From a virus (lineage: Duplodnaviria > Heunggongvirae > Uroviricota > Caudoviricetes), in IMG/VR virus record IMGVR_UViG_3300045988_013455, positions 1 through 43,601 of that record: 43,601 bases of DNA. One strand, written 5' to 3'. Positions 4,224 to 37,908 of the stretch are shown piece after piece. Each line of letters starts with the position of its first letter. The stretch's first letter is position 1. The position numbers were made by a program, and so were the translations under genes. The notes under the pieces were generated by a model. The model was not told the DNA's origin. It saw nothing but the letters and a program-made list of their open reading frames with translations, and ran no database searches.

Positions 4224-4247
4224 AAGGCCCCAAACGGGGCCTTTTCT
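4224..4247. terminator. Bidirectional rho-independent terminator between convergent tailspike and replication operons
   Basis: GC hairpin AGGCCCC-aaac-GGGGCCT followed by TTTT; A-rich on the other side. Confidence 0.7.
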
Positions 4248-4451
4248 CTACTCTTCAGATAACTTCTCCAGTACAAACGCCAGTTGCGCGTTAGCGGCGT
4301 CTCTTTGTTGCCGCAGGCGTAGAACCTCCTCCTCAAGTTCCTTGATACGTTTTATTTCTCGCTTTAACTGCATGGCAAGAAGTTGCTCTCGGGCATTAAG
4401 AGCGTCTTTTATCAATTCGTCGCAAGCGTCGATATCGAACTCATTATTCAT
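4248..4451 (-). CDS. Hypothetical coiled-coil protein (67 aa)
   Basis: Last gene of the leftward operon; start overlaps the helicase stop (ATGA). Confidence 0.4.
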   Translation of the reverse strand: MNNEFDIDACDELIKDALNAREQLLAMQLKREIKRIKELEEEVLRLRQQRDAANAQLAFVLEKLSEE

Positions 4452-5872
4452 TTCTTACCTCGTCTCTTCATGTAATTAAGCAACTCTTCCTGTACAGATT
4501 TCTTCTCGTCAGTGCGCGCGGCAACAACCTCGTCCAGCGTGTCTTTAGCAACGATGTGATACAGGAACACCGGGCGCTCGTGGCCTGCTTGCTTCTGGCG
4601 CACCGGGCCTATACGCTCAACGACCTGCAAATAGTGCTCAAGGTTCCAGCCTTGCGAGATGAACGCCAGATGATGCCCGCCGTCCTGTAAATTCAAACCA
4701 TGACCGGCTGACGCAGGGTGGACGCATAAGATTTCGATTTCACCGCGGTTCCACGCTTCCATCTGCTTATTACCCTTCGCACCTTTAGAAAATGCCTGAG
4801 CCTGCGGGAATCGCTTAAGGATGCGCTCAAGTTCGTGCTTGAACTGATAGGCCACAAGCAACGGCGCACCCTGTAACTCCTCAACGATGGACTCAAGCGC
4901 ATCCAGTTTAGTGTCGTGCACTTTCTCCCAGTCTTTGGTTGCTTCTCCGTCTGGTCCTGATACATATACGGCGCCAGATGCAATCTGTAGACACTTCGAC
5001 GTCTTCGCCGCCGCGTTAGCCGCTTCAACTTCTCCGCTCTCCAGTTCCGCGAATAACTTCTCCTCCATATCGATGTACGCCTGGCGCGCTTTCTTCGGCA
5101 GGTCGATTTCAACAGGGACAATAATCGGCGCTTCACATCCGAACCACTCGGCGGCGTCAATCGTGAGACTAATGTCTTTCATCTTCTGGTGGATTTCATT
5201 ATCCGCACCCGGGCGCGCATGATACTCCCGCGCCATAGCCGACTTACCTTTCTGTACCGAGTTAAACCAGCGGTCGGTGAATGCCGTGTACGAAGAACCG
5301 AGGCGCTCGCCCGCGTCGATAAACCAGTTCTGCCCCCACAAGTCCTTGAGACCGTTTGGCGACGGTGTACCCGTCAGATTAATGAAACGCTTAACTTTAC
5401 CGAATGCCACCTTACTGAGCGCCTTAGCCCGCTTGCTCCCGCCAGAACGGCTGCGGAAGGATTTAAGCTTCGTGCTCTCGTCGGCAACAATAACCGTGAA
5501 AGGCCAGTCGTCTTTGCCGTAGTAGTCAATCAGCCACTCGATAACTTCGTAGTTGGTGCACACCACGTTAGCGTCAGACTCCAGCGCCGCGATGCGGCGC
5601 TTCTCTGAACCAGTAGCATCGACGACACTCAGACAAGGGAAGCTCCACTTAGTTTGTTCTGCAGGCCATGTGCCGGACGCAACACGTAACGGGGCAAGTA
5701 TTAACACGCGGTCGTCATCATTAAGTTGGCCGTTTCGGAACAGTCGGTTTAACACCCACATTGTCGACGAGGTCTTGCCGCCGCCCATACCGCACCAGAT
5801 ATTGCAACGTGGGTGCTGTAGCATAAACGACGTCATTATTTTCTGATATTCCCTGCGCCTAAACTTACTCAT
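4448..5872 (-). CDS. SF2 DNA helicase, SNF2-like
   Basis: Motifs GMGGGKT (Walker A), VIVADES (DExx-type), LTGTPSPNGLKDLWGQ (SNF2 motif III) and a C-terminal helicase domain. Confidence 0.8.
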   Translation of the reverse strand: MSKFRRREYQKIMTSFMLQHPRCNIWCGMGGGKTSSTMWVLNRLFRNGQLNDDDRVLILAPLRVASGTWPAEQTKWSFPCLSVVDATGSEKRRIAALESDANVVCTNYEVIEWLIDYYGKDDWPFTVIVADESTKLKSFRSRSGGSKRAKALSKVAFGKVKRFINLTGTPSPNGLKDLWGQNWFIDAGERLGSSYTAFTDRWFNSVQKGKSAMAREYHARPGADNEIHQKMKDISLTIDAAEWFGCEAPIIVPVEIDLPKKARQAYIDMEEKLFAELESGEVEAANAAAKTSKCLQIASGAVYVSGPDGEATKDWEKVHDTKLDALESIVEELQGAPLLVAYQFKHELERILKRFPQAQAFSKGAKGNKQMEAWNRGEIEILCVHPASAGHGLNLQDGGHHLAFISQGWNLEHYLQVVERIGPVRQKQAGHERPVFLYHIVAKDTLDEVVAARTDEKKSVQEELLNYMKRRGKK

Positions 5873-6366
5873 GCCTTGAACTCCCAGAAGTATATTTCCG
5901 CGGCTCTTTGGTATACGCGCGACGCTTCTTCTATAGTGTCAAAATAGCCAAGGTGGATGTATTTGTTATTGACGCCTATTCTGGCGCGCCACCTGCCAGA
6001 GGGTATTTGGTAAACCCCTATCGCGCCGCTAGTGTTATGTGATGAGCAGTCTCGGTTCTGAATCTGCTGGCTCCTGGTTGCTGGCCTTATATTATTTATG
6101 GCGTTATTAGCCCTGTTACGGTCTTTATGGTCAAGCTCACCATTATGATATTCTCCGTAGACGAAAGCCCATGCCAGATGGTGGGCTTTTATTCTTACAC
6201 CAGATACGGTGATAACTATGTATCCTTTGTCGTTTGGACCCCCGGCTACCTCCCCCGCATTCCTACCTTTTATGCTTACTTTCCGTGTAAATACGCCTGT
6301 TTCGGGGTCATAGTTAAGAAGACGTTTCGCCTCCTCAATATCAGGCCTTCTAGTTAATTTGTTCAT
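5869..6366 (-). CDS. HNH homing endonuclease with C-terminal AP2 DNA-binding domain
   Basis: HHLAWAFVYGEY...ELDHKDRNRANNAINNIRPA (HNH) plus GVYQIPSGRWRARI...LGYFDTIEEASRVYQRAA (AP2-like). Confidence 0.7.
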   Translation of the reverse strand: MNKLTRRPDIEEAKRLLNYDPETGVFTRKVSIKGRNAGEVAGGPNDKGYIVITVSGVRIKAHHLAWAFVYGEYHNGELDHKDRNRANNAINNIRPATRSQQIQNRDCSSHNTSGAIGVYQIPSGRWRARIGVNNKYIHLGYFDTIEEASRVYQRAAEIYFWEFKA

Positions 6367-6554
6367 TTCAACACCAGCACCAATTCTTTGCGCCCGAACG
6401 CCGTAACGTTACCAGTTACATCTTCGATAACCAGTTTACCGTTTGACTCGACGAACACCGTATCAACGGCAACAGGACGACGGGTCTTAACGTTGAAAAT
6501 CATGTCGCCAGGTACGATGTCACGTGCTGGTTTGCGGTCATATTCGTGTTTCAT
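6363..6554 (-). CDS. Hypothetical protein (63 aa)
   Basis: ORF in operon context with overlapping stop/start. Confidence 0.4.
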   Translation of the reverse strand: MKHEYDRKPARDIVPGDMIFNVKTRRPVAVDTVFVESNGKLVIEDVTGNVTAFGRKELVLVLK

Positions 6555-6565
6555 TTCTCAATTCC

Positions 6566-6868
6566 TTATATTGTTGGTGTATGACTACTATAATAGTCCG
6601 CTATTAGGTCGTCAACCTGTTTAAACGAACCAACGACAAAAACATTAGCACCACGTTTTCGGAATCTTTCATGTTCGCGTAGCTGGTGCGGGTCTGGCTT
6701 CGTGTTTTCGTCTTTCTTAACCTCGACGAACCATATTATGCCGTGGGGGAGAACCACTAACAGGTCCATTGCCGCGCGTCTGTTTTCATAAGACAGTTTA
6801 CGAACGAGGCCACCAATGGCCTCGAATCGGTCTTTTGCGTATTTCTGTATTTTGCCTTCCGGGGTCAT
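6566..6868 (-). CDS. VRR-NUC domain nuclease (PD-(D/E)XK fold)
   Basis: MDLLVVLPHGIIWFVEVKK ... HQLREHERFRKRGANVFVV resembles the VRR-NUC D...E-x-K core. Confidence 0.55.
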   Translation of the reverse strand: MTPEGKIQKYAKDRFEAIGGLVRKLSYENRRAAMDLLVVLPHGIIWFVEVKKDENTKPDPHQLREHERFRKRGANVFVVGSFKQVDDLIADYYSSHTPTI

Positions 6869-7011
6869 GACCGCAGCATCCAGGTAAGGAACGCCCCGCC
6901 TAGAAGGGCAACACCGACAAAATTAAAGAACAGACCATAACAGAACATCGCAGCTATTCCCGCGCCGAATAACAGTGCGAGCATGGTTACTATCGTCCAA
7001 AATACAAACAT
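6865..7011 (-). CDS. Small hydrophobic membrane protein (about 48 aa; not in ORF track, coordinates approximate)
   Basis: My own translation: MFVFWTIVTMLALLFGAGIAAMFCYGLFFNFVGVALLGGAFLTWMLRS; ATGA overlap with VRR-NUC start. Confidence 0.3.
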   Translation of the reverse strand: MFVFWTIVTMLALLFGAGIAAMFCYGLFFNFVGVALLGGAFLTWMLRS

Positions 7012-7099
7012 TGTCACAATACGCACCCCTCCCGTTTCGTATGCTCAATTCCACAGCGAGGACAGATTCGGCGGTCTTCTTCATAAAACCAGTAAATTT

Positions 7100-7231
7100 T
7101 CATTCCAGCACCCACAGATAAATTGCTACTAACATGCCAAATACCGCGGCCATCATGCCGTATTGACCCTCGTGACAGTAGACACCGGCGGCAAATCCCG
7201 CCAGTACCGCGATAATCAGTTTACTTAGCAT
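7100..7231 (-). CDS. Small hydrophobic membrane protein (about 43 aa; not in ORF track, coordinates approximate)
   Basis: My own translation: MLSKLIIAVLAGFAAGVYCHEGQYGMMAAVFGMLVAIYLWVLE; start overlaps the polymerase 3' end. Confidence 0.3.
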   Translation of the reverse strand: MLSKLIIAVLAGFAAGVYCHEGQYGMMAAVFGMLVAIYLWVLE

Positions 7232-9434
7232 AACGCTTCATCTCCGCACCTTCCGCTACAAGAGGGAACCCCTCCGCCCATTCCGGCAATTCGCACATCA
7301 ACCGCTCAAGCTCTGCTACATTGTATTCCGGTAAATCTGGTGTCTCGCAGATAATCTCATCGTGAACATGAAGTACAATCGGGTAGCCGTTTGCTTCGAC
7401 GTTCAGCAGCGCGTTGGCCAGCAAATCACGGCACAACGCCTGAGTGCAGTTTTCCACCAGTTTACCAGAGTAGGTGTACTGGAGGCCCCACTGACGGGTT
7501 AACTGGTTTTCGCCCTGGTACTTGATGCGCACGTTAGTAGACACCTTTCCGTCTTCGTCGGTCTCTTTCGACACGCTCAATCCGACGCCTGGGTAAGACA
7601 TAACTCGACCAGACGGCAACGTCATCCGCAACCACCAACCGGCGACTTTGTTGCCGTTGTTATCTGTCTCTACGTTACGCGAAAACTTAACGCCTCGCGG
7701 CCCTGCGGTGAACTCTTTGCCTGGGTTGCGGATAGCTGCCATAGCCGCGTCTTCAATATCTCGCCAGAAAGCTACTGTTTCAGGGTGAGACTCCCGCCAC
7801 ATGCGCTTGATTGCATCACAGGTACGCCACACTTTTTTATCAAGAATATATGATGGTCGGTCATCCTTTTCACCCGGCCGCGGGGGTCGCTTGGCTTCCT
7901 GAATACGCGCCCACTCATATCCACGTGCGGTAGAAGCCCATATGTGGTCGGGGAATGTCCCGTCCATTGTTTTAGCCATATCAACAAGGTCGAGGCCGAG
8001 GTTCTTAGCAAACTGAACGAAAGCACCAACACCTCCTGCGTAGCCGAGGCCCAGTTCGCAGGCTTTACCAATCTGGCGTAAGTCTTTACGTTCCTTCTTA
8101 ATGTAATCCGGCTCCATGCCGAACATCTTACCTGCGGTTACGCAGTAAATATCCAGTCCAGCGCGGAACGTATCGAGCGCGGTTTCTTCACCAGCCAGCC
8201 ACGCAAGCCCCCGGCCTTCAACGTTCGAGTAATCGGCAACGACAAACTTATGCCCTGCTTCCGGTATGATGCAGCTACGAACCGTCGATGCCGTTAGCTT
8301 GGCTACATCGAAACGGCGGTGCGCGCGGCCCTTAAGTAACGCTGAAATACCTTTATCCAGTTCACCATCATGGTAGTACCCGCGCGCCAGGTTCTGTGGC
8401 TGGAACCCTTTACCCGCAAATCGCAATGTACGCTTGGCTCCACCGTACTGGATGCAACCGCGACGGCGGTCGTCCGACGAGCGTCCTAACAGCAGCGGGT
8501 TATATTTCGTTGACGCGGTAGACGCTGCCCCGAGTCGCATTTCGATAATCGTGCGTGCGTCGCCCGGTAAATCATCGTCTGCCAATAGGTCATTCAGCGT
8601 CGATTTCTGTGCGTTGTGGATACGGTGCGCAGGGGCCAGTTCACGCAGAATTGGAAGAAAGTCCTTTCCAGTAAGCGAGCCGCCGTATTTGCGCTGTGCT
8701 TCTTCCTGTAACTGTGCCTTGTGCTTCTCTACGGCTTCAATCGCGGCTTCCGCCAGCGCGACATCAACCTTAAACCCGCGGTCATTGATTAACTGGTCCA
8801 GCTCCAGTACACGGTCTTCGAACTCGGAGTTACCCCAACGCGGCAGCTTATGGAAGACTTCACGCATAGCAGTAATGTCGCTCACAGCGTACTTGATGAA
8901 CAGCGCCCACTCGTCAGGGTGAGTTTCTGCGGTGTAGCGGCGGATTTTGTAGTTCTTCGGCGTCGGTTTAGAGAAACGCTGAATCAGCGCCTTGCCGCGT
9001 TTATCTTTCGCGTTGTCAGCGGATACACCCAGCACTTCGCACAACGCATCGAGCGACCCTGGCAGCGCGTGACGGAACGCCCAAATCATCGTATCAATGG
9101 TGTTGTTTACCGGAATATCAAAGCCCCAGCAGTGCTTCATGATGAGGCGGTCGAACATTGAGCCATTGTGCCACACCATCTTAATGCGGCTGTTCGGCTT
9201 AACCAGACGACGCAGTGCGCGGTGTAAATCCCCCGGCATGTCGCTGCCGTCAGTGCAATCCCATACCTGTACAGGCTCGTCGTCAAAAGCATAGGTACAG
9301 ATAAGCACTTCGGTAGTTGGGTGTTCGGCGTAAGCGTAGGAACCGACTTTCTTTAAATCGATGCCGCTGTAGGTTTCAAAGTCTAGATAGAGTAATTCTG
9401 GCATGGTATTTTGACCCTTAATAAAAAGGCCCAA
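7221..9434 (-). CDS. DNA polymerase, family A, with N-terminal 3'-5' exonuclease domain
   Basis: LYLDFETYSG (Exo I), ADYSNVEGRGLAWLAGE (motif A-like), RQIGKACELGLGYAGG (motif B-like), VLHVHDEIICE (motif C). Confidence 0.9.
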   Translation of the reverse strand: MGLFIKGQNTMPELLYLDFETYSGIDLKKVGSYAYAEHPTTEVLICTYAFDDEPVQVWDCTDGSDMPGDLHRALRRLVKPNSRIKMVWHNGSMFDRLIMKHCWGFDIPVNNTIDTMIWAFRHALPGSLDALCEVLGVSADNAKDKRGKALIQRFSKPTPKNYKIRRYTAETHPDEWALFIKYAVSDITAMREVFHKLPRWGNSEFEDRVLELDQLINDRGFKVDVALAEAAIEAVEKHKAQLQEEAQRKYGGSLTGKDFLPILRELAPAHRIHNAQKSTLNDLLADDDLPGDARTIIEMRLGAASTASTKYNPLLLGRSSDDRRRGCIQYGGAKRTLRFAGKGFQPQNLARGYYHDGELDKGISALLKGRAHRRFDVAKLTASTVRSCIIPEAGHKFVVADYSNVEGRGLAWLAGEETALDTFRAGLDIYCVTAGKMFGMEPDYIKKERKDLRQIGKACELGLGYAGGVGAFVQFAKNLGLDLVDMAKTMDGTFPDHIWASTARGYEWARIQEAKRPPRPGEKDDRPSYILDKKVWRTCDAIKRMWRESHPETVAFWRDIEDAAMAAIRNPGKEFTAGPRGVKFSRNVETDNNGNKVAGWWLRMTLPSGRVMSYPGVGLSVSKETDEDGKVSTNVRIKYQGENQLTRQWGLQYTYSGKLVENCTQALCRDLLANALLNVEANGYPIVLHVHDEIICETPDLPEYNVAELERLMCELPEWAEGFPLVAEGAEMKRYAK

Positions 9435-9445
9435 TGAAGGGCCTT
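9421..9445 (-). terminator. Intra-operon rho-independent terminator/attenuator between SSB and DNA polymerase genes
   Basis: Minus strand reads AAGGCCC-ttcatt-GGGCCTT followed by TTTTTAT. Confidence 0.5.
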
Positions 9446-9464: not shown

Positions 9465-10091
9465 TTAACGGCGGCGACGTTCGCGGCGCGGTGCTTCGTC
9501 TTCTTCGTCATCTTCCAGGTCGTCGACGCTTGCGGCGACTTTAGAACCGCCGAATGCTTTACCTTCGCCGACGTATTTAATCGCCAGCAGGTTAACGCCG
9601 AGTACTTTGTATTTCTGGCTGAACCAGATTTCAACGCTTACGTTAGCGACACAGCCGCTGTAAACCTGTTCGCCTTCAATCTGTTCCCCGTCTACGTTGA
9701 AGTCCTGTTCTACCTGAGTCTCACCCTTTTTAGAGGTTACAATCAGTGGCTGTTTCTGTGCCTTCGCTTTGAAGTAGAAGCCTTCCGGGAAGTCTTCAAA
9801 CGGATTGTCGCGCTCGGCGATGTCTTTAATCGCGCATTTATCCATGTGCTTACCTTCACCGTAGTTGGACTTCATCCACTTCTCGGCAGCGGCTGCACCT
9901 AACGCCTCTTCAACTACAGCGTAAACAGTGTCGTAGAGCGCATCGATTTGAGCATGGTCAGACGGCAGGATAATAGTCGCGCTGTACTGACCTTTAGTGA
10001 TTGAGCCATCATCGTTTTCACGGTCTTTTTCGCGTTCGAATACGTTAACCCAGGCAGTGTTTACTTTACGCAGATTTAATTTCAGTCCCAT
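9465..10091 (-). CDS. Single-stranded DNA-binding protein, T7 gp2.5 / DUF2815-like
   Basis: N-terminal KLNLRKVNTAWVNVFE, internal YSGCVANVS, acidic tail DDLEDDEEDE; recalled family resemblance, not searched. Confidence 0.55.
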   Translation of the reverse strand: MGLKLNLRKVNTAWVNVFEREKDRENDDGSITKGQYSATIILPSDHAQIDALYDTVYAVVEEALGAAAAEKWMKSNYGEGKHMDKCAIKDIAERDNPFEDFPEGFYFKAKAQKQPLIVTSKKGETQVEQDFNVDGEQIEGEQVYSGCVANVSVEIWFSQKYKVLGVNLLAIKYVGEGKAFGGSKVAASVDDLEDDEEDEAPRRERRRR

Positions 10092-10143: not shown

Positions 10144-10172
10144 ACTATAATAGCTAACTATTCAGGTGTCAA
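10144..10172 (-). promoter_or_regulatory. Sigma70-like promoter (TTGACA-17-TATAGT) upstream of SSB gene
   Basis: Minus strand reads TTGACAcctgaatagttagctatTATAGT; shares the AACTATTC motif with other promoters. Confidence 0.5.
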
Positions 10173-10405
10173 CCCTTCCAGCCAGTTATTTTCTCAACTA
10201 TAGTCAGATATACGTTAGGCCACTTCAAATTACGCACCCACTCAACTTCTTTGGCGTACACCAAATCCTCTAGCTCTATTTTCCTGCACTTGAACGCGGT
10301 ATACGCGAAAAACGGAAGAAGCATTATGACAAGCGGCAATATTAGCGCGTGATAAGTTAAAAACGCCACAAAACCGCCAATTACTCTGAACATTTTACGA
10401 ATCAT
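10169..10405 (-). CDS. Small membrane protein (start set at RBS-supported ATG; track ORF extends to 10468)
   Basis: GAGGAGGA RBS then ATG (MIRKMFRVIGGFVAFLTYHALILPLVIMLLPFF); hydrophobic segment. Confidence 0.5.
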   Translation of the reverse strand: MIRKMFRVIGGFVAFLTYHALILPLVIMLLPFFAYTAFKCRKIELEDLVYAKEVEWVRNLKWPNVYLTIVEKITGWKG

Positions 10406-11697
10406 TCTAAATCCTCCTCTGTTACCTGATTCCACTCGGGTCGTTTGTCGCCCGCCGTTGCAACACATGGTGCGCCCGGCTTACGGGTAATAAAGTCTTT
10501 CAGTTCATCTTCCGACACAACTTTAACCGCTTCGGTCGGCGTCATGAGCACTACCTTTTGCAGCATAGTACCGTACTTCGCGAATACCGCATCGGCATCT
10601 TTCCACGAACGATTACCAGGACGACCTTCAACCAGCTTGTACCCCGGCACTTTCTTACCGGAATGCAACGCGGTGGCCATAGCCTTTTCAACCTTGTCGA
10701 TGTGCTGGCGCAACAACGGCAACTTCTCATATTCAGCTACGAGTTGCTCTGGTGTCAGTTCCAGTGCCAAGTCGTCCTCCAGTTCTTCCTCCAGTACAGA
10801 ATTAACCGTCTTTGTACGCGCTGCGCACTGTTCAGAGAACCGACACCACTGGCATCCATCTACCGATGGCTTGAAGTCCGACGCTTTCAGGTTCTTCTTA
10901 CCGCGGAAATACGCATCAAGCGCCAACAGTGCACGTTTCTGTGCGAACTTAGCGAACAGTTCCAGACCTTCAACCGAGATGTCCCACTCTGACGCACCCC
11001 CAGCGTACGGCTGGAAGATGACCAGACGAACCATGGTGATGTTATAACGTCTCTTGAGTCGGCGATAAACACCAAGAGCGTAAAGCATAAGCTGCTTGTT
11101 TTCTTTCGCTTCGACACGATGCCGTCCTGTTTTAAGGTCGCCGATGATGAGCATCGCGGAGTTACTTTCACCTGTAAAGCCTTCTATAACCGCCACTAAG
11201 TCGGCTGTCCCGAATGTCTCTAAATCATCCTCCTTACCTTCTTCACTCTCAGCAGGTACTTTGTATCCCGGATGCAATACCTCAGTAAGATTGACGCGCA
11301 TTTCTAACTTTGCATAAGTCGCTACATCGATAATCGCTTTGCAGTAGTCGGTGTACTTGCGCACCTGCTCAATCATGTCCGCCGTAATCAGTACAGCACC
11401 TTTCATTTGGCGTATTAGCGCCTTAATCTGGCCTTTGCCCTCATCCAGCACGTAAGCACCGACTTCGCGCTCTAACGGCAACGCAGTGCCGCGTATATAG
11501 GCGTTGAGATGGACCTCAGCTATAGTGTGGCATGCTGTTCCTGTAACGGCGGATTTACCCGACGTGTTAGGAATGTCTTTTTCACACGCCAGTGACGCAG
11601 CACATGACAGCCACTTTTTAGCGCCCGACGGTGACAATAATGCGTGCACATCGTTATTACCGCCGCGTTCCTTTAAAATCATACCCTGCTCTCCCAC
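10402..11697 (-). CDS. PD-(D/E)XK exonuclease, RecB/Cas4-like with Fe-S cysteine cluster
   Basis: GTADLVAV...IGDLKTG...QLMLYAL nuclease core; N-terminal Cys plus C-terminal CQWCRFSEQC (CxxCx5C). Confidence 0.7.
   Translation of the reverse strand: MGEQGMILKERGGNNDVHALLSPSGAKKWLSCAASLACEKDIPNTSGKSAVTGTACHTIAEVHLNAYIRGTALPLEREVGAYVLDEGKGQIKALIRQMKGAVLITADMIEQVRKYTDYCKAIIDVATYAKLEMRVNLTEVLHPGYKVPAESEEGKEDDLETFGTADLVAVIEGFTGESNSAMLIIGDLKTGRHRVEAKENKQLMLYALGVYRRLKRRYNITMVRLVIFQPYAGGASEWDISVEGLELFAKFAQKRALLALDAYFRGKKNLKASDFKPSVDGCQWCRFSEQCAARTKTVNSVLEEELEDDLALELTPEQLVAEYEKLPLLRQHIDKVEKAMATALHSGKKVPGYKLVEGRPGNRSWKDADAVFAKYGTMLQKVVLMTPTEAVKVVSEDELKDFITRKPGAPCVATAGDKRPEWNQVTEEDLE
10403..10423. repeat. 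21-nt junction module tcattctaaatcctcctctgt (copy 1), identical to 13454..13474
   Basis: On the minus strand encodes TEEDLE-stop of the upstream gene plus GAGGAGGA RBS and ATG of the downstream gene. Confidence 0.85.
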
Positions 11698-11951
11698 TGG
11701 TCAATTAAATGCCGAGTCTTATGTTCGCAGTGCATAGCCCACCCATACATCGACTCGAAGACATAAAAGTCAGGTTTGGCGAAAGTCGTGCGCTTAATCT
11801 GCGACACGTGGCGGCCTATATCTTTAGGCCGTGGCACTTTTCCTAAGTACGCCATCTCTTCCATCAGGTGCGCACCGGACGGCGCACGTAACAGCCATAG
11901 CGCCTCTGTGTTATCCCGCCTGTCTACGGCGCGGTAGAGTTGGTAAATCAT
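11679..11951 (-). CDS. Hypothetical protein (90 aa)
   Basis: ORF in operon; overlaps neighbours by a few nt. Confidence 0.4.
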   Translation of the reverse strand: MIYQLYRAVDRRDNTEALWLLRAPSGAHLMEEMAYLGKVPRPKDIGRHVSQIKRTTFAKPDFYVFESMYGWAMHCEHKTRHLIDQWESRV

Positions 11952-12235
11952 TGCGCCTTCTCCCGCATTTTCAGAAATACAATCATAGCAGCGCGTAGAG
12001 GGTTCTCGTGCGTACTTTTAGTGAACGATGCAGAGTGGTACGCACGATATGTAAACGTATGCCGGTTAACCGTAACGCATTCAATTGATATGTGATTATC
12101 AATTATTATGGACCATGCATCAGATGGGTTGTTGCAGTAGTCTTTGGCCTTAAACGAATTCAATCCTGAAATTTGCATAATCTCTGCGTGCACACGGCAG
12201 TTAATCTCAAAATCGCCCATTTCTTCATATTTCAT
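11948..12235 (-). CDS. Hypothetical protein (95 aa)
   Basis: ORF in operon; preceded by RBS-like GAGGG. Confidence 0.4.
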   Translation of the reverse strand: MKYEEMGDFEINCRVHAEIMQISGLNSFKAKDYCNNPSDAWSIIIDNHISIECVTVNRHTFTYRAYHSASFTKSTHENPLRAAMIVFLKMREKAQ

Positions 12236-12278
12236 AATTACGACCCTCAGTTAAAGCGGCCCGAAGGCCGCAGGATAT

Positions 12279-12788
12279 TTATTCTTCTTCAAAATACTTG
12301 TTCTTGATTGCCGTCAGTCGCTCCAGATATTCGACCAGGTCTTCGTCCTTAATCGCAGCAATCTTCATCTTCTCGCCAGTGAACTCTTCCAGCAGTTCAT
12401 CAGAATCATCACACGCGGCATCGCTAGGGCCTTCGTTAATCGCATCATCGATAGCCTGAATCTGGTCACGAAGAGACTGGTAATCGACCTCTTCTTCCGG
12501 CTCTGGCGTTGGTTCCTCTACTTTAGCTTTCCGCGGCTTGCGTTTTGGTTTCTCTTCTTCTGCCGGTTTAGTGTCAACAAGGTCTTCACCTTCGACTGGG
12601 ATTTCTTTTGTTTCTTCTTTTACAACAGTAGGCGTGATTGTTGCAGTTTCTGCGACACCACTGTCGACGTCTTTACCATATGGCGCCGTGATAGCCTTCG
12701 GCAGTTCAGTACGGCGTGCACTGTTCGCAGCAATCAGTTCATGTGCAACTACGAAACGTTCCAGTAATTTTAAGAATTGGTCTAACAT
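12279..12788 (-). CDS. Acidic hypothetical protein (169 aa)
   Basis: RBS GAGGAGAGA upstream of ATG; highly acidic Glu/Asp-rich sequence. Confidence 0.5.
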   Translation of the reverse strand: MLDQFLKLLERFVVAHELIAANSARRTELPKAITAPYGKDVDSGVAETATITPTVVKEETKEIPVEGEDLVDTKPAEEEKPKRKPRKAKVEEPTPEPEEEVDYQSLRDQIQAIDDAINEGPSDAACDDSDELLEEFTGEKMKIAAIKDEDLVEYLERLTAIKNKYFEEE

Positions 12789-12819
12789 TTGTTTCTCTCC
12801 TCTCGTTTGGTATGGGCTA

Positions 12820-12849
12820 ACTATAATAGCTAACTATTCATGTTGTCAA
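12820..12849 (-). promoter_or_regulatory. Sigma70-like promoter (TTGACA-18-TATAGT) for the 12788 gene
   Basis: Minus strand TTGACAacatgaatagttagctatTATAGT; leader contains AAACGAGAGGAG. Confidence 0.5.
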
Positions 12850-12913
12850 TGGGCTTTCCTAAAATAATTAATATGGTACTATTCACATATAAACTGACTA
12901 AGGAGTAACTGAC

Positions 12914-13129
12914 ATGCAACCATCTGAACTAGGCATCCGTGTAGAACAACGCCGCAAAGAACTCGGCCTCTCTCAGCGCCGTCTGGCGGTCCTGGCTGGC
13001 GTTTCCCAGGGCGCAATTAACCAGCTGGCACTTGGGGTAACTCAGGACGTCCGCCCGGCAACGCTGTTTAAACTGGCGGAAGTGCTGCAAGTAGACGCCA
13101 AGTGGCTGGCGTTCGGTGAAGGGGCTTAA
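12914..13129 (+). CDS. XRE-family (Cro/CI-type) helix-turn-helix transcriptional regulator
   Basis: RRKELGLSQRRLAVLAGVSQGAINQLALG is a typical HTH_3 signature; lone plus-strand gene with own terminator. Confidence 0.7.
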   Translation: MQPSELGIRVEQRRKELGLSQRRLAVLAGVSQGAINQLALGVTQDVRPATLFKLAEVLQVDAKWLAFGEGA

Positions 13130-15782: not shown

Positions 15783-16016
15783 TTATTCCAGGTCTTCTAA
15801 AGTGGCTGTCATTCCGCGAACTTCAGCAATGGCACTATATTTCCCACCAACATTTTTCACGACATCAGATTTAACCAGCACCTTCAACGACCCCTCAATA
15901 ATGGCGGAACTATAGTACTTAAAATAACTACGGCGCAAGTCCATAACGCTGCACGACCCTTTTTTACGTGTCAACGAAACTACCGCCGTAAATACACGCG
16001 ACTGGAACTCGGTCAT
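15783..16016 (-). CDS. Hypothetical protein (77 aa), ends LEDLE
   Basis: ORF in early leftward operon; ATGA overlap with upstream small HTH gene. Confidence 0.45.
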   Translation of the reverse strand: MTEFQSRVFTAVVSLTRKKGSCSVMDLRRSYFKYYSSAIIEGSLKVLVKSDVVKNVGGKYSAIAEVRGMTATLEDLE

Positions 16017-16183
16017 TTCACGTTCTCCTTAATCCACGCTTCCACTTTCTCCGGGTCAAACGTACCTGGCTGCCGGCGCCCCATAATGCGGATGCAACAA
16101 TCCGGGAACTTCCCACTCTTTAACCAGTTATTCAGCGTGCGACGAGTAACCCCGATGCGCTCAGCTACCTCATTCTGTGTCAT
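16013..16183 (-). CDS. AlpA-like small HTH DNA-binding protein (about 56 aa; not in ORF track)
   Basis: My own translation: MTQNEVAERIGVTRRTLNNWLKSGKFPDCC...; first gene after leftward early promoter. Confidence 0.5.
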   Translation of the reverse strand: MTQNEVAERIGVTRRTLNNWLKSGKFPDCCIRIMGRRQPGTFDPEKVEAWIKENVK

Positions 16184-16215
16184 TCTCAAACCCTCATTAT
16201 CAGTTAACGAAACCG

Positions 16216-16244
16216 AGTATACATTGCGAATAATGGGAAATCAA
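16216..16244 (-). promoter_or_regulatory. Leftward early promoter (TTGATT-17-TATACT)
   Basis: Minus strand TTGATTtcccattattcgcaatgTATACT about 35 nt upstream of the AlpA-like start. Confidence 0.5.
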
Positions 16245-16623
16245 ACATAATTGCACCTATTGACATTATGAAAATCTTCGTTTAAGGTGCTTCTGTATCT
16301 TAGTTACTTTGATTCCTGTTCACCTTGTAAAACCGCTTAAAACGCAGCTGCGCGCAGCGCAAGCAAAGTGTTAAGCGAAAGTTTACTGAACATAAGAATT
16401 ATCGTAACTTCCTCCCTAAGTATCTCCGGTTGCCCTGGGCAAGCTCTATTCTCATCGGCGGCATATCTCTTAAGTATCTGATTTTCTTAATGTGCCGTAG
16501 ATTCGCAACCGTAAAAATGTAACGATTATTGGGCAGGCTTAGGGCCTGCCCTTTAGTTACCAAGTAATAAGAATAAAGGCACAGCCCTACCTGAAGAATC
16601 ACAACGGCAACGTAACTATTCTC

Positions 16624-16652
16624 TTGCACACCCCAACATAATAGGTTACTAT
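16624..16652 (+). promoter_or_regulatory. Rightward early promoter (TTGCAC-17-TACTAT) with conserved leader
   Basis: TTGCACaccccaacataataggtTACTATtcac then AAACGAGACAGAGGAG before the ATG at 16678. Confidence 0.55.
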
Positions 16653-16677
16653 TCACTTATCGAAACGAGACAGAGGA

Positions 16678-17902: not shown

Positions 17903-17931
17903 TTGCACGCTGGGATAGAGTAGACTACTAT
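17903..17931 (+). promoter_or_regulatory. Sigma70-like promoter (TTGCAC-17-TACTAT) with conserved leader
   Basis: TTGCACgctgggatagagtagacTACTATtcat then AAACGAGAGGGGAGA before the ATG. Confidence 0.55.
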
Positions 17932-17962
17932 TCATTTACACAAACGAGAGGGGAGACAGAAG

Positions 17963-20930: not shown

Positions 20931-20953
20931 ATCTATTTTCTGCAATGACTAGT

Positions 20954-20982
20954 TGACTATTACCTTCGACCCTATTATATTT
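20954..20982 (+). promoter_or_regulatory. Sigma70-like promoter (TTGACT-17-TATATT)
   Basis: TTGACTattaccttcgaccctatTATATT upstream of the 21016 gene. Confidence 0.5.
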
Positions 20983-22814: not shown

Positions 22815-22836
22815 GCCCTCTACGGAGGGCTTTTCT
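22815..22836 (+). terminator. Rho-independent terminator
   Basis: GCCCTC-tacg-GAGGGC followed by TTTT. Confidence 0.65.
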
Positions 22837-22859
22837 GTACATCCCACCCAATCCCCTTA

Positions 22860-22913
22860 TATAATCCCTTTAGACGCGTAGGGCGCGTCTGATGCGCTCT
22901 GATGGTCAGACGC
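22860..22913 (+). promoter_or_regulatory. Consensus -10 (TATAAT) without a good -35, followed by nested inverted repeats upstream of terS
   Basis: TATAAT at 22860-65; hairpins AGACGCG/CGCGTCT and GCGTCTGA/TCAGACGC; tandem TCTGATG. Confidence 0.35.
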
Positions 22914-26180: not shown

Positions 26181-26210
26181 AGAAAAAGGCCCCTTACGGG
26201 GCCTTAACTT
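26181..26210. terminator. Bidirectional rho-independent terminator
   Basis: AAGGCCCC-ttac-GGGGCCTT flanked by A-run and T-rich sequence. Confidence 0.7.
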
Positions 26211-26502
26211 TCCAGACTTCTCGAAGCGCTACGAGTTTATGATTACCAATATCTCTTGATATTATTGAGTCAGTAAAACCATTGAACCACGATTTCATCC
26301 AGTCAGACGTTCTGAAATCAGCGTACAGAATATGTATCGTTTGCGGAGCGTCGACGTCGTAATGTTGGCACACATAAACGCATCCGCTGGCGAATATAAT
26401 AGCTTTAAACGTATCGTAATCTTCTGAATCCGGGAACTCGCTAGAATCCCCGACAAGATATCTGTACGCGTATTTTTTAGTAGTCTTCTTTCTTTTCCGC
26501 AT
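26194..26502 (-). CDS. Hypothetical protein (102 aa), antisense cassette A
   Basis: Third gene of a leftward cassette inside the late operon. Confidence 0.45.
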   Translation of the reverse strand: MRKRKKTTKKYAYRYLVGDSSEFPDSEDYDTFKAIIFASGCVYVCQHYDVDAPQTIHILYADFRTSDWMKSWFNGFTDSIISRDIGNHKLVALREVWKVKAP

Positions 26503-26511
26503 GGTGATTTC

Positions 26512-26742
26512 TCAGAAGTGTATTACTGGTTGTTTAAACTTCCAGTCACAATCTACCTGTTTAATCACACCTTTCGCAACAAGACTGTCTATAAATTCCG
26601 GACCTGAATTTGTCTTGTACCATGTGTATCTGTTCCCAACTTTTACGCCCGGAAGGCTGTGGTACACAACGCCATCAACCACCATAAAAGATACGCCGAT
26701 AGCCCCTTTTTCTGCATAGAGTTTTTTAGTCCCACCGCTCAT
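26512..26742 (-). CDS. Hypothetical protein (76 aa), antisense cassette A
   Basis: Second gene of the leftward cassette. Confidence 0.45.
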   Translation of the reverse strand: MSGGTKKLYAEKGAIGVSFMVVDGVVYHSLPGVKVGNRYTWYKTNSGPEFIDSLVAKGVIKQVDCDWKFKQPVIHF

Positions 26743-26779
26743 AGTACACCCAGATTAAATAATTATTAATATAAGGCCC

Positions 26780-26965
26780 TTAGGCCTTACGAATTGTATA
26801 TTCATACCCGAGGTAGCCGTTTTTCTCTTGCATAGCGGAGGCACGCAGCAGAGCAGCATTCTCACCTTTAACTACAGCGACCACATAATCCGTAGAGTCT
26901 GGGCCATTTTCCACAACTTCATACGCCTGTAAGTTCTTGGTGGTAAGTTCATATGTGTTAGTCAT
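26780..26965 (-). CDS. Hypothetical protein (61 aa), antisense cassette A
   Basis: First gene after promoter; conserved leader AAACGAGAGATAAGGAA before ATG. Confidence 0.45.
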   Translation of the reverse strand: MTNTYELTTKNLQAYEVVENGPDSTDYVVAVVKGENAALLRASAMQEKNGYLGYEYTIRKA

Positions 26966-26998
26966 TTCTAAATTCCTTATCTCTCGTTTCGATAAGTG

Positions 26999-27027
26999 AA
27001 TAGTACCCTATTATATTGGTGTCTGCA
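26999..27027 (-). promoter_or_regulatory. Sigma70-like promoter (TTGCAG-17-TACTAT) driving antisense cassette A
   Basis: Minus strand TTGCAGacaccaatataatagggTACTATtcac then conserved leader. Confidence 0.55.
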
Positions 27028-27072
27028 AATATTATTTTTATGCGTTACACTGTCAATACTACAGGAGGGCCT

Positions 27073-28577: not shown

Positions 28578-28610
28578 TAAAAGGCCCCGTTATGGGGCCT
28601 TAGTTTTATT
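28578..28610. terminator. Bidirectional rho-independent terminator
   Basis: AGGCCCC-gttat-GGGGCCT followed by TAGTTTTATT; A-rich on the other side. Confidence 0.7.
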
Positions 28611-28818
28611 CATGTGTCGCTGCTCTAAAATTAAGTTCTTCACGAGGGATAAACCCCCTATCAGTTTTTACATAACAAGTTGTGTAACTATACATTACCT
28701 CTCTGCCCGTGATATCTCCGTAGTTCTCACACCCGTGTTCATCTAAGCTACGTACACCGGCAGCAATTACCAGTGAAAATGCCAATGTCATCAATACCGA
28801 GATAATTAATTCTTTCAT
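28606..28818 (-). CDS. Small secreted/periplasmic protein (70 aa), antisense cassette B
   Basis: N-terminal signal-like MKELIISVLMTLAFSLVIAAG, two Cys in the mature part; own promoter and terminator. Confidence 0.5.
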   Translation of the reverse strand: MKELIISVLMTLAFSLVIAAGVRSLDEHGCENYGDITGREVMYSYTTCYVKTDRGFIPREELNFRAATHE

Positions 28819-28853
28819 CTTTAAGTTCCTTATCTCTCGTTTCGATGCAATGA

Positions 28854-28882
28854 ATAGTACCCTATTATATTGGTGCCTGCAA
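28854..28882 (-). promoter_or_regulatory. Sigma70-like promoter (TTGCAG-17-TACTAT) driving antisense cassette B
   Basis: Minus strand TTGCAGgcaccaatataatagggTACTATtcat then AAACGAGAGATAAGGAA. Confidence 0.55.
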
Positions 28883-28933: not shown

Positions 28934-28949
28934 AACTATTCGAATAGTT
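28934..28949. repeat. Perfect 16-bp palindrome AACTATTCGAATAGTT overlapping the -35 of the rightward promoter
   Basis: Self-complementary; half-site ACTATTC recurs in most phage promoters of this genome. Confidence 0.7.
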
Positions 28950-28976
28950 GACTTTTCACTAAAAATGTGCTAAGCT
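28948..28976 (+). promoter_or_regulatory. Sigma70-like promoter (TTGACT-17-TAAGCT, TG-extended)
   Basis: TTGACTtttcactaaaaatgTGcTAAGCT; transcribes an ORF-poor 200-nt segment ending at a hairpin. Confidence 0.5.
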
Positions 28977-28982
28977 CCACCT

Positions 28983-29180
28983 GAGCTTGTGAAGTATGAA
29001 CAAGCGACCGCGGCGCGGGCAGGTAACGGAGCTGGACGTAAGTCCTGAGTGTAGTTACGCTGACGCGTTCGGAAGGGCCATACTCTATTGCTTGTGTAAA
29101 AAGTAACTGGTTTACTGAGATTATGCCGTTTCTATGTTTAAATGATAAGGACTAGCGCCCCGCTTTAAGGCGGGGCTTTA
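28983..29180 (+). ncRNA. Candidate small RNA / structured leader (promoter-to-terminator unit without substantial ORF)
   Basis: About 200 nt between promoter and GCCCCGC-tttaag-GCGGGGC hairpin; only a 36-codon ORF with poor RBS. Confidence 0.25.
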
Positions 29181-36044: not shown

Positions 36045-36075
36045 AACTAAGGCCCCTTTCGGGGCCTTTTTCTTA
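36045..36075. terminator. Bidirectional rho-independent terminator
   Basis: AAGGCCCC-tttc-GGGGCCTT followed by TTTCTT; A-run on the other side. Confidence 0.7.
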
Positions 36076-37657: not shown

Positions 37658-37864
37658 TCACTTCTCGTTAACATTCGAGTTGCACGCCCAGATTAAAATA
37701 AAGACCCACGGCAACAGAATCCAACCAAGAAACAGATTGGCCATGAATATCGCCAACTTCGCTTTATGGTCACGGAAATACGCAACCAGAAAAGGTGCGA
37801 AATAGGCGAGTAGTGCAAACAGAATTAAGGAAACTGGTAAACTGGACATTTTAAACTCCTTCAT
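37658..37864 (-). CDS. Small two-TMD membrane protein (68 aa), antisense cassette C
   Basis: SLPVSLILFALLAYFAPFLVAYF and IFMANLFLGWILLPWVFILIWA; first gene after promoter. Confidence 0.5.
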   Translation of the reverse strand: MKEFKMSSLPVSLILFALLAYFAPFLVAYFRDHKAKLAIFMANLFLGWILLPWVFILIWACNSNVNEK

Positions 37865-37879
37865 TGTTGGCGTGAGTGA

Positions 37880-37908
37880 ATAGTACCCTATTATATTGGG
37901 GCGCGCAA
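37880..37908 (-). promoter_or_regulatory. Sigma70-like promoter (TTGCGC-17-TACTAT) driving antisense cassette C
   Basis: Minus strand TTGCGCgccccaatataatagggTACTATtcac, same module as at 26999 and 28854. Confidence 0.5.

What the first reader, a model, noticed from the sequence alone, without database searches (positions are those of the whole stretch)
16624..16677. Reused promoter-leader module with shared ACTATTC(A) motif at many transcription units
Promoters at 16624, 17903 (plus) and 26999, 28854, 37880 (minus) share nearly identical spacer/-10 sequence ATAATAGG(G/T)TACTATTCA and an AAACGAGAG leader. Related copies AACTATAATAGCTAACTATTCA occur at 10144 and 12820, GGTACTATTCAC at 12869..12880, and the palindrome at 28934. 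The conserved sequence exceeds what sigma70 needs, suggesting a phage regulator binding site or a functional 5' leader. No phage RNA polymerase is encoded.
Basis: seen in the sequence. Interest (0 to 1): 0.5.

Follow-up and report, generated by a model that had tools for sequence, protein, structure and literature searches.

The report
Palindromic operator shared by phage promoters
Nearly every promoter of this virulent Kagunavirus-type phage carries the same 14-bp palindrome (AATAG-N4-CTATT), most likely the docking site of a phage-encoded repressor, and the repeat was already listed in the literature as a "phage promoter" without its symmetry or mechanism being recognised.

Summary
The 18-mer ATAATAGGKTACTATTCA occurs 4 times exactly and 3 times with 2 mismatches (0 expected). 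The conserved unit is a 14-bp dyad, AATAG-N4-CTATT: 7 exact copies (0.03 expected) plus 4 one-mismatch copies, all on sigma70-type promoters.

The copies at 10144 and 12820, and an unlisted one at 6592, are promoters pointing the other way (TTGACR-N4/5-dyad-ATAGT). The dyad sits in three registers relative to the predicted start: -12.5, -18.5 and -33.5.

In 86 unique class-B promoters anchored only on -35/-10, the spacer arm AATAG carries 1.75-1.9 bits per position. The linker and central N4 carry 0.55-1.0 bits.

Jerseyviruses share the dyad (TAATAG-N4-CTATTA). A Cornellvirus has a degenerate variant (TAWTAS). The terS and HTH_17 promoters lack it.

Best reading: an operator for a phage HTH regulator that represses by occluding RNA polymerase. 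The binder is unresolved between the 71-aa 434-Cro-like XRE protein and a very conserved 58-aa MerR-like HTH_17 protein.

A Kagunavirus paper (PMC9825357) already lists the same consensus as PHIRE "phage promoters" and wrongly invokes a phage RNA polymerase. Moderate interest; a new member of a known kind.

The parts
16640..16653 (+). Exact dyad AATAGGTTACTATT in class-A promoter P16624. -35 TTGCAC at 16624-16629, 17-bp spacer, -10 TACTAT at 16647-16652. The opposite strand reads CTATTATGTTGGGG, a possible divergent -10.
17919..17932 (+). One-mismatch dyad AGTAGACTACTATT in class-A promoter P17903. -35 TTGCAC at 17903-17908, -10 TACTAT at 17926-17931. No divergent -10 on the other strand.
26999..27012 (-). 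Exact dyad in a class-A promoter. -35 TTGCAG at 27028..27023, -10 TACTAT at 27005..27000. It drives three small accessory genes (26965..26194). The plus strand has TCGATA-17-TATATT (26989-27017) facing the head-morphogenesis gene, whose ATG is at 27073.
28853..28866 (-). Exact dyad in a class-A promoter. -35 TTGCAG at 28882..28877, -10 TACTAT at 28859..28854. It drives the 70-aa accessory gene 28818..28606.
37879..37892 (-). Exact dyad in a class-A promoter. -35 TTGCGC at 37908..37903, -10 TACTAT at 37885..37880. It drives the superinfection-immunity gene 37864..37658. The plus strand has CTATTATATTGGGG facing the tail assembly chaperone gene at 38016.
12825..12838 (-). Exact dyad AATAGTTAGCTATT (minus-strand reading) filling the spacer of class-B promoter TTGACA (12849..12844)-18-TATAGT (12825..12820). 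It drives the 12788..10169 operon and is divergent from the XRE gene.
10149..10162 (-). Exact dyad in the spacer of class-B promoter TTGACA (10172..10167)-17-TATAGT (10149..10144). It drives the SSB gene 10091..9465.
6592..6605 (-). Exact dyad AATAGCGGACTATT (minus-strand reading) in the spacer of class-B promoter TTGACG (6615..6610)-17-TATAGT (6592..6587). It is embedded in the 3' end of ORF 6566..6868 and drives 6554..4248, which includes the helicase.
12870..12883 (+). One-mismatch dyad AATATGGTACTATT over the -10 (TACTAT, 12877-12882) of the XRE gene's own promoter, which has a weak -35. It lies 45 bp centre-to-centre from the 12825 dyad.
20948..20961 (+). One-mismatch dyad ACTAGTTGACTATT overlapping the -35 of promoter TTGACT (20953-20958)-17-TATATT (20976-20981). 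This is class C, with the dyad centre near -33.5. Jerseyviruses have the mismatch in the other arm (TAATAGTTGACTAGTA).
28934..28956 (+). Everted palindrome AACTATTCGAATAGTT (28934-28949) overlapping the one-mismatch dyad AATAGTTGACTTTT (28943-28956). The dyad lies over the -35 of TTGACT (28948-28953)-17-TAAGCT (28971-28976).
16664..16671 (+). Leader motif AACGAGAC, starting about +5/+6 of the predicted transcript. Other copies (AACGAGAG): 17943-17950(+), 26981-26988(-), 28834-28841(-) and 12800-12807(-).
12914..13129 (+). 71-aa XRE/HTH_3 protein. Its best solved relative is phage 434 Cro (71 aa, full-length alignment). Candidate dyad binder.
16013..16189 (-). 58-aa HTH_17 protein, probably starting at the ATG at 16183. 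It has a MerR-like winged-HTH/excisionase fold. Its own promoter, TTGATT-17-TATACT (16244..16216), has no dyad. Second candidate binder.
22836..22865 (+). Dyad-free promoter TGTACA-18-TATAAT upstream of the small terminase gene. It is dyad-free in Kagunavirus, Jerseyvirus and Cornellvirus alike.

Best explanation
The repeated sequence is a 14-bp dyad, AATAG-N4-CTATT (extended form TGAATAGT-NNN-CTATTATAKT), superimposed on host sigma70-type promoters of a virulent Kagunavirus-like siphophage.

It occurs in three promoter architectures:
- Class A: TTGCRN-N10-dyad. The right arm forms the -10 TACTAT and the dyad centre is near -12.5.
- Class B: TTGACR-N4/5-dyad-ATAGT. The dyad fills the spacer and its centre is near -18.5.
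- Class C: the dyad overlaps the -35 TTGACT and its centre is near -33.5.

The most likely function is an operator. A dimer of a phage-encoded helix-turn-helix protein binds the two arms one helical turn apart and blocks RNA polymerase. This gives co-ordinated turn-down of the replication, early/accessory and lysis transcription units.

The dyad-free promoters in front of terS (packaging and structural genes) and HTH_17 would escape this control. The XRE gene's own promoter has a weakened dyad, which fits autoregulation.

The binder is inferred, not shown. My estimates are about 0.45 for the 434-Cro-like 71-aa XRE protein, about 0.3 for the 58-aa MerR-like HTH_17 protein, and the rest for another factor.

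The AAACGAGAG leader is a separate element fixed at about +5/+6 of the transcripts. It is probably a 5'-UTR or translation-initiation module copied together with the promoter. Its function is unknown.

What is shown: the sequence pattern, its statistics, its conservation footprint and its distribution. What is inferred: the start sites, protein binding and the sign of regulation.
For: - Enrichment: 7 exact dyads against 0.03-0.04 expected. It is the top palindrome in every Kagunavirus examined.
- All exact copies and 4 of 5 one-mismatch copies lie on predicted promoters.
- The dyad occurs in both orientations relative to the strong promoter and in three registers, plus a fourth (-15.5) in Jerseyvirus. 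It is therefore separable from the -35/-10 contacts.
- Unbiased footprint: 86 unique class-B promoters were anchored only on -35/-10. The arms AATAG and CTATT carry 1.75-2.0 bits per position. The linker carries 0.6-1.0 and the central N4 0.55-0.83. Sigma70 makes no base-specific use of that part of the spacer (established knowledge).
- In class-B sites the unused direction would run antisense into the upstream operon, so a second promoter cannot explain the left arm.
- The dyad is conserved in Jerseyvirus as the symmetric TAATAG-N4-CTATTA, 7 copies against 0.1 expected. There is a reciprocal half-site shift to TATTAG-type in a Cornellvirus infecting the same host genus, 3 copies against 0.13 expected. 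This argues for a phage-encoded rather than a host binder.
- Geometry matches a 434-type operator: 14 bp with arm centres about 10 bp apart. The adjacent 71-aa HTH_3 protein aligns over its full length to 434 Cro.
- Two dyads flank the XRE divergent region, and the one over XRE's own -10 is imperfect.
- The terS promoter is dyad-free in all genera.
Against: - There is no experimental binding, start-site or expression-timing data for this phage group. Literature searches found none.
- The Kagunavirus and Jerseyvirus XRE proteins are only 51% identical and differ in the recognition helix (QGAINQ vs QSLITH), yet the core half-site is the same. HTH_17 is 88-90% identical across those genera and absent where the dyad is absent or degenerate. 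The XRE assignment is therefore insecure.
- All 7 exact dyads carry a -10-like ATAKT/ATRTT extension on the same side, at a fixed register. This would also fit a promoter-recognition or activator role.
- At class-A sites a repressor would also block the divergent promoters facing the structural operons. That is awkward for a simple early-shut-off model.
- A Klebsiella phage of the subfamily has an XRE homologue but no repeated dyad.
- Most comparison sequences are closely related Kagunaviruses, so the footprint is not built from independent samples.
Confidence: 0.6

Rival explanations
1. The dyad is a positive promoter-specificity element. A phage factor, for example the MerR-like HTH_17, binds the spacer dyad at a fixed -18.5 register and helps RNA polymerase use the abutting -10 (TATAGT or TATATT). 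At class-A sites it would substitute for the missing -35 of the promoters facing the structural operons, while shutting off the overlapping opposite-sense promoter. That would make it a direction or timing switch.
For: - All 7 exact dyads carry the ATAKT/ATRTT extension on the same side at the same register.
- The divergent promoters at 26999, 28853 and 37879 have good -10 boxes followed by GGKG but poor -35 boxes, and they face late operons.
- HTH_17 has a MerR-like fold and co-occurs exactly with the dyad.
- SoxR, a MerR-family protein, can activate one direction and repress the other at a bidirectional promoter (PMC12825309).
Against: - Spacers are 17-18 bp, already optimal, so the MerR-type untwisting rationale is absent.
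- HTH_17 lacks the MerR coiled-coil dimerisation helix; it is only 56-58 aa.
- Class-C sites (-33.5), class-A sense promoters (-12.5) and the Jerseyvirus -15.5 site do not share the register.
- Class-B promoters already match 10-11 of 12 consensus positions and should not need an activator.
Confidence: 0.15
2. No dedicated binding protein exists. The apparent dyad is a by-product of two back-to-back -10-like boxes in compact bidirectional promoters, spread through the genome by duplication of one promoter cassette.
For: - Each arm overlaps or abuts a -10-like hexamer: TACTAT on one strand, TATTAT/TATATT on the other.
- Class-A sites sit at divergent gene junctions.
- The 26999 and 28853 cassettes are near-identical over about 75 nt, so they are clearly duplicates.
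- Bidirectional promoters arising from -10 symmetry are common in enterobacteria (PMC12825309, PMC10268837).
Against: - In class-B promoters both arms lie in the spacer. The reverse direction has no -35 and would only make antisense RNA, yet the left arm is as conserved as the -35 while its neighbouring bases vary.
- The predicted divergent start sites are about 31 bp apart and use separate hexamers. The known cases share one -10 with 10, 18 or 23 bp separations.
- Paralogous sites differ in linker, centre and flanks, so simple recent duplication does not explain conservation limited to the arms.
- P17903 keeps most of the dyad without any divergent -10.
Confidence: 0.15
3. The motif is the promoter of a phage-encoded RNA polymerase, as stated for the same consensus in the fBC-Eco01 paper.
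For: PHIRE finds 7 copies with the consensus tgAATAGTa-ccTATTat-T in a Kagunavirus, and the authors call them phage-RNA-polymerase promoters (PMC9825357).
Against: - No RNA polymerase gene is annotated in the relatives XY1 and Snoke, and none is evident among the window's ORFs.
- The asymmetric 20-mer is not in a constant orientation relative to the genes and leaders it precedes.
- Every copy coincides with a good sigma70 -35/-10 pair.
Confidence: 0.01
4. The dyad plus the conserved +5 leader is a loading site for a Q/AlpA-type processive antiterminator (HTH_17). This would let polymerase read through the many intrinsic terminators that punctuate the genome.
For: - Q-type factors bind within promoter spacers and need a conserved initially transcribed element (own knowledge of lambda Q and P. 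aeruginosa AlpA).
- The genome is divided by strong terminators.
- The leader motif sits at a fixed +5/+6.
Against: - The registers are variable.
- The dyad is present on minus-strand accessory cassettes whose read-through would make antisense RNA to structural genes.
- The leader is absent from 37880, 10149 and 6592.
- HTH_17 gives no PF05930 (Phage_AlpA) hit and lacks an N-terminal extension.
Confidence: 0.04

Closest known systems
Phage 434 Cro/repressor with its 14-bp operators (ACAA-N6-TTGT)
   Same: - A 71-aa single-domain HTH_3 protein whose best solved relative is 434 Cro.
- A 14-bp dyad with conserved outer bases and a free centre.
- Operators that overlap promoter core elements.
- A pair of sites in the divergent region next to the regulator gene, one over its own promoter.
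   Different: - About 11 sites are dispersed over the whole genome, rather than 6 in one immunity region.
- The phage is virulent: no integrase or CI-length repressor is seen in the relatives' annotation.
- The half-site sequence is different.
- Binding by XRE is untested, and a second candidate binder exists.
Dispersed repressor-site regulons of temperate phages: mycobacteriophage L5/cluster A stoperators (PMC9283540, PMC6550527). From my own knowledge, also P1 C1 operators and phiC31 conserved inverted repeats.
   Same: - One short site is repeated many times across a phage genome, tying many transcription units to one regulator.
- Site variants track phage lineages, giving immunity-like specificity.
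   Different: - Stoperators are asymmetric 13-14-bp sites bound by a monomer. They are often inside transcribed regions and orientation-dependent.
- The sites here are symmetric and strictly promoter-embedded.
- The host phage is considered strictly lytic.
Symmetric bidirectional promoters of enterobacteria (PMC12825309, PMC10268837)
   Same: Class-A sites sit at divergent junctions and have -10-like boxes on both strands within one compact element. The two polymerase binding modes must be mutually exclusive.
   Different: - The known cases share one -10 hexamer, with start sites 10, 18 or 23 bp apart.
- Here there are two separate hexamers about 31 bp apart, flanking a conserved dyad.
- The dyad is also present in purely unidirectional promoters.
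PHIRE 'phage-specific promoters' reported for Kagunaviruses fBC-Eco01 and Golestan (PMC9825357, PMC7203180)
   Same: It is the same sequence. The published consensus tgAATAGTa-ccTATTat-T equals the extended core found here, with seven copies per genome.
   Different: - The papers treat it as a directional promoter for a phage RNA polymerase.
- They do not note its dyad symmetry, its two orientations, its registers, or the absence of such a polymerase.

Membership tests
Sigma70-type bacterial promoter | -35-like and -10-like hexamers separated by 16-18 bp, upstream of a gene on the same strand | tested here: met
   Class B matches 10-11 of 12 positions. Class A is TTGCRN-17-TACTAT, and class C is TTGACT-17-TATATT or TAAGCT. 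Each lies 25-110 nt upstream of a start codon preceded by a Shine-Dalgarno sequence.
Sigma70-type bacterial promoter | Mapped transcription start site | not testable with these tools
   No transcriptome or start-site data were found for Guernseyvirinae.
Cro/CI-type (HTH_3) operator | Dyad-symmetric site of 14-18 bp with arm centres about one helical turn apart and a variable centre | tested here: met
   AATAG-N4-CTATT. The arms carry 1.75-2.0 bits per position and the centre 0.55-0.83 bits.
Cro/CI-type (HTH_3) operator | Cognate HTH_3 protein encoded next to the operators, including one over its own promoter | tested here: met
   XRE at 12914-13129 hits PF01381 with E 6.6e-13 and 434 Cro with E 3.6e-7. 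Dyads at 12825 and 12870 flank the divergent region.
Cro/CI-type (HTH_3) operator | Operator sequence co-varies with the recognition helix of the regulator | tested here: inconclusive
   The Kagunavirus and Jerseyvirus helices differ, yet the core half-site is the same. The Cornellvirus helix resembles the Jerseyvirus one, yet its half-site is shifted or degenerate.
Cro/CI-type (HTH_3) operator | Demonstrated specific binding and repression | not testable with these tools
   This needs EMSA or footprinting and reporter assays.
Single-subunit phage RNA polymerase promoter | Phage encodes its own RNA polymerase, and the motif has a constant orientation relative to the transcribed genes | tested here: not met
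   No RNA polymerase gene is present. The extended core points towards the genes at class-B sites and away from the leader-bearing genes at class-A sites.
Symmetric bidirectional promoter (shared -10) | One pseudo-symmetric -10 used in both directions, with divergent start sites about 10, 18 or 23 bp apart | tested here: not met
   There are two separate hexamers, and the predicted start sites are about 31 bp apart (26993 and about 27024). Class-B sites have no reverse promoter.
MerR-type spacer operator | Dyad between -35 and -10 of a promoter with an over-long 19-20-bp spacer, bound by a MerR dimer with a coiled coil | tested here: not met
   Spacers are 17-18 bp. HTH_17 is 56-58 aa with three helices and no coiled coil.
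Q/AlpA antiterminator loading site | Binding element at a fixed position in the promoter plus a promoter-proximal pause element, with a factor of the Phage_AlpA or Q family | tested here: not met
   Registers are -12.5, -18.5 and -33.5. The leader is absent from several sites. There is no PF05930 hit.
Known RNA leader or riboswitch family (Rfam) | Match to a curated covariance model | tested here: not met
   No match at gathering thresholds in the whole window.

The most novel reading that the evidence does not exclude
The dyad is the recognition element of a phage-specific promoter switch. The unusually conserved 58-aa MerR-like HTH_17 protein would bind the spacer dyad at -18.5. It would silence the sense promoter (early and accessory genes) at each compact bidirectional site. 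It would also license the overlapping -35-less promoter that faces the structural operons. A virulent siphophage without its own RNA polymerase or sigma factor would thereby time late transcription by flipping promoter direction.
Probability: 0.12. Interest if true: 0.7.

Novelty: new member of a known kind. Interest (0 to 1): 0.38.

Why it matters
Kagunaviruses and Jerseyviruses are widely isolated as strictly lytic therapy and biocontrol phages, yet their transcription programme is unstudied.

If one palindromic operator sits on about 11 of about 13 promoters, a single small phage protein probably sets the timing of replication, accessory and lysis genes. That has several consequences:
- A resident phage's regulator could silence an incoming relative, giving cross-interference between co-infecting related phages.
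- Accessory (moron-like) cassettes are plugged into the phage circuit by carrying the same promoter, operator and leader module.
- It provides a compact, portable regulated promoter set for phage engineering.

It also corrects published annotations that ascribe the motif to a phage RNA polymerase these phages do not encode.

Tried and rejected
- Klebsiella phage VLCpiS11a (XRE 40% identical): no repeated dyad turned up in its XRE region or its strong promoters, so it could not be used for covariation. A first PHIRE-like all-against-all scan timed out.
- Homologues of XRE among 5.8 billion proteins: only Kagunavirus-type variants (78-97% identical) with an invariant recognition helix came back, so no out-of-clade operator test was possible.
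- HTH_17 homologues in the phage collection: all lie within Kagunavirus/Jerseyvirus-type phages, so no out-of-clade test was possible. Sequence search against solved structures found nothing significant. The fold search gave only weak MerR/Xis/RacA/BldC-like hits.
- Scan of 185,579 bacterial and archaeal genomes for the class-B promoter-plus-dyad pattern: one hit, a mis-binned fragment of the same phage group. No temperate relatives were found to learn from.
- Rfam on the whole window: nothing.
- A first motif tally that selected sites by the dyad itself was discarded as circular. It was replaced by anchoring on -35/-10 only.
- The main taxonomy paper on the subfamily (PMID 25663216) is not held.
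- Host-factor binding was considered and judged unlikely. Jerseyvirus and Cornellvirus infect the same host genus but carry different half-sites, and the dyad matches no E. coli regulator consensus I know of (own knowledge).

Full report
**What the window is.** The 43.6-kb window is essentially a whole genome of a Kagunavirus-like siphophage (Guernseyvirinae). It is about 90% identical to Escherichia phages SCS92, NTEC3 and XY1. No RNA polymerase gene is annotated in the close relatives XY1 and Snoke, and none is evident among the window's large ORFs.

**Checking the observation.**
- The 18-mer ATAATAGGKTACTATTCA is exact at 16638(+), 26997(-), 28851(-) and 37877(-). It has two mismatches at 10147, 12823 and 12868. 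None is expected by chance.
- ACTATTCA occurs 8 times against 1.4 expected.
- Read on their own strand, the four exact copies and the diverged one at 17903 are good sigma70-type promoters: TTGCRN, a 17-bp spacer, then TACTAT.

- At 10144 and 12820 the consensus scan finds near-perfect promoters on the minus strand, TTGACA-17/18-TATAGT. A third of this type is at 6615..6587.
- Aligning all sites by direction of transcription shows two architectures of opposite sense that share one core, TGAATAGT-NNN-CTATTATAKT.
- The heart of that core is an inverted repeat, AATAG-N4-CTATT. It has 7 exact copies against 0.03 expected, all on predicted promoters.
- Four of the five one-mismatch copies are also on promoters: the XRE gene's own promoter (12870), P17903 (17919), and two sites where the dyad overlaps a -35 TTGACT (20948 and 28943).
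- The dyad centre lies near -12.5 (class A), -18.5 (class B) or -33.5 (class C) from the predicted start.

**Is the dyad more than promoter sequence?**
- I collected the orthologous SSB, p169 and 6554 promoters from 43 related genomes and contigs.
- I anchored them only on their -35 and -10 hexamers, which gave 86 unique sequences.
- The left arm AATAG lies in the spacer, where sigma70 makes no base-specific contacts. It carries 1.75-1.91 bits per position, as much as the -35.
- The 4-nt linker carries 0.6-1.0 bits and the central N4 0.55-0.83 bits. The right arm carries 1.8-2.0 bits.
- At class-B sites the reverse direction has no -35 and would only make antisense RNA to the upstream operon. 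A second promoter therefore cannot explain the arm.
- Caveat: most of these sequences are close relatives, so they are not independent samples.

**Distribution.**
- In every Kagunavirus examined the dyad is the most over-represented non-terminator palindrome, with 6-7 exact copies.
- Jerseyviruses carry a fully symmetric TAATAG-N4-CTATTA at the orthologous promoters: 7 copies within one mismatch against 0.1 expected. One of these sits in yet another register, near -15.5.
- Cornellvirus PhiSTP1 and four related contigs have none of this type. They are instead enriched for TATTAG-type, degenerate TAWTAS-N4-STAWTA dyads at their promoters.
- A Klebsiella phage of the subfamily has no repeated dyad.
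- A scan of one genome per bacterial and archaeal species found the class-B pattern only in a mis-binned fragment of the same phage group.
- Two promoters in the window lack the dyad. One is upstream of terS; it is conserved and dyad-free in all three genera. The other is upstream of HTH_17.

**Who binds?** There are two candidates.
- XRE (12914-13129):
  - It is a 71-aa HTH_3 protein whose best solved relative is 434 Cro, also 71 aa, aligned end to end.
  - 434 Cro binds a 14-bp dyad, and the XRE gene is flanked by two of the dyads.
  - It is the only candidate also present in Cornellvirus.
  - Against it: the Kagunavirus and Jerseyvirus proteins are 51% identical with different recognition helices, although the core half-site is the same.
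- HTH_17 (16013-16189):
  - It is a 56-58-aa MerR-like winged HTH. Its weak fold neighbours are RacA, Pukovnik Xis, BldC and RdfS.
  - It is 86-100% identical within Kagunavirus and 88-90% identical in Jerseyvirus. Its neighbours are far more diverged (helicase-primase 60%, p77 66-68%).
  - It is absent from Cornellvirus and the Klebsiella phage. That is exactly the distribution of AATAG-N4-CTATT.
- I could not break the tie in silico.

**Mechanism.**
- A site that overlaps the -10, the spacer or the -35 in different promoters tolerates variable register. That is what steric repression allows and what activation or antiterminator loading generally does not.
- I therefore favour an operator for a phage repressor that turns down replication, accessory and lysis units while the dyad-free terS promoter continues. 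My confidence is about 0.6.
- Two facts keep a positive or switch role alive:
  - All seven exact dyads carry a -10-like ATAKT/ATRTT extension on the same side.
  - At class-A sites this forms a -35-less promoter facing the head, spanin/capsid or tail operons. These sites are compact divergent promoters with predicted start sites about 31 bp apart.
- This geometry differs from the shared -10, 10/18/23-bp arrangement of known bidirectional promoters.

**The leader.**
- AACGAGAS occurs 6 times, which is not significant as a count.
- Five of the six copies lie just downstream of dyad promoters of both classes. They start at about +5/+6 of the predicted transcript, regardless of where the dyad sits.
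- The motif recurs in Jerseyvirus and Cornellvirus leaders.
- It is therefore positioned by the start site, not by the dyad.
- It matches no Rfam family. It is probably a 5'-UTR or translation-initiation module. Its function is unknown.

**Prior knowledge.**
- The fBC-Eco01 paper lists seven PHIRE "phage promoters" with consensus tgAATAGTa-ccTATTat-T and ascribes them to a phage-encoded RNA polymerase (PMC9825357).
- The Golestan paper also lists seven PHIRE motifs (PMC7203180).
- The repeat itself is therefore already recorded. Its dyad nature, two orientations, registers, conservation footprint and likely operator role are not.
- The closest mechanistic analogues are 434-type Cro operators and the dispersed repressor-site regulons of temperate phages, such as cluster-A stoperators (PMC9283540, PMC6550527).

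**Verdict.** It is a new member of a known kind and of moderate interest.

Noticed in passing
window 28948-29176 (+): A TTGACT-17-TAAGCT promoter is followed by about 195 nt without a convincing ORF and then a strong terminator (29157-29176), just upstream of the spanin gene. The predicted fold is only mildly better than shuffles (z = -1.77) and there is no Rfam match. It could be a small RNA or a tiny ORF; phage Snoke annotates a 36-aa ORF at the equivalent place.
   Followed up: partly
window 28934-28949: A perfect 16-bp palindrome, AACTATTCGAATAGTT, is made of the same half-sites in everted order (CTATT-CG-AATAG). It abuts the -35 of the promoter above and is conserved in XY1 and Snoke. Its relation to the N4 dyad is unexplained.
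   Followed up: partly
window 26194-26965 (-) and 28606-28818 (-): These are moron-like accessory cassettes inserted between structural operons. Their genes have no homologue in any of 8 related genomes. Each cassette consists of a near-identical dyad promoter plus AAACGAGAG leader plus ribosome-binding site, and ends at a bidirectional terminator.
   Followed up: partly
window 4224-4243, 9426-9445, 26186-26205, 28581-28601, 36049-36068: A reused terminator module, AAGGCCCC-N4-GGGGCCTT, is followed by T-runs on both strands. It marks the convergent boundaries of transcription units.
   Followed up: no
window 16013-16189 (-): The 58-aa HTH_17 protein is far more conserved between Kagunavirus and Jerseyvirus (88-90% identity) than its neighbours (60-68%). 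It is missing from Cornellvirus and a Klebsiella phage, where the XRE gene instead sits directly upstream of the helicase-primase gene on the same strand.
   Followed up: yes
window 16190-16640: A 450-bp ORF-poor region lies between the HTH_17 operon and P16624. It has terminator-like hairpins on both strands (16531-16551 on plus, 16362-16348 on minus). A possible leftward transcript from the divergent side of the 16640 dyad would run into it.
   Followed up: no
window 22836-22865 (+): The promoter upstream of terS (perfect -10 TATAAT followed by CCC, directly after a terminator) is conserved and dyad-free in Kagunavirus, Jerseyvirus and Cornellvirus. It is a candidate late promoter that escapes the dyad regulator.
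   Followed up: partly
L049 (JAEWLW010000055.1, 4349 bp): A contig binned into a Bacillota metagenome-assembled genome is a fragment of a Guernseyvirinae phage, 72-87% identical to window 4737-8768. This is probably a binning artefact.
   Followed up: yes
Literature: PMC9825357: The published description of Kagunavirus fBC-Eco01 attributes the seven-copy motif to a phage-encoded RNA polymerase, although phages of this group encode none.
   Followed up: yes
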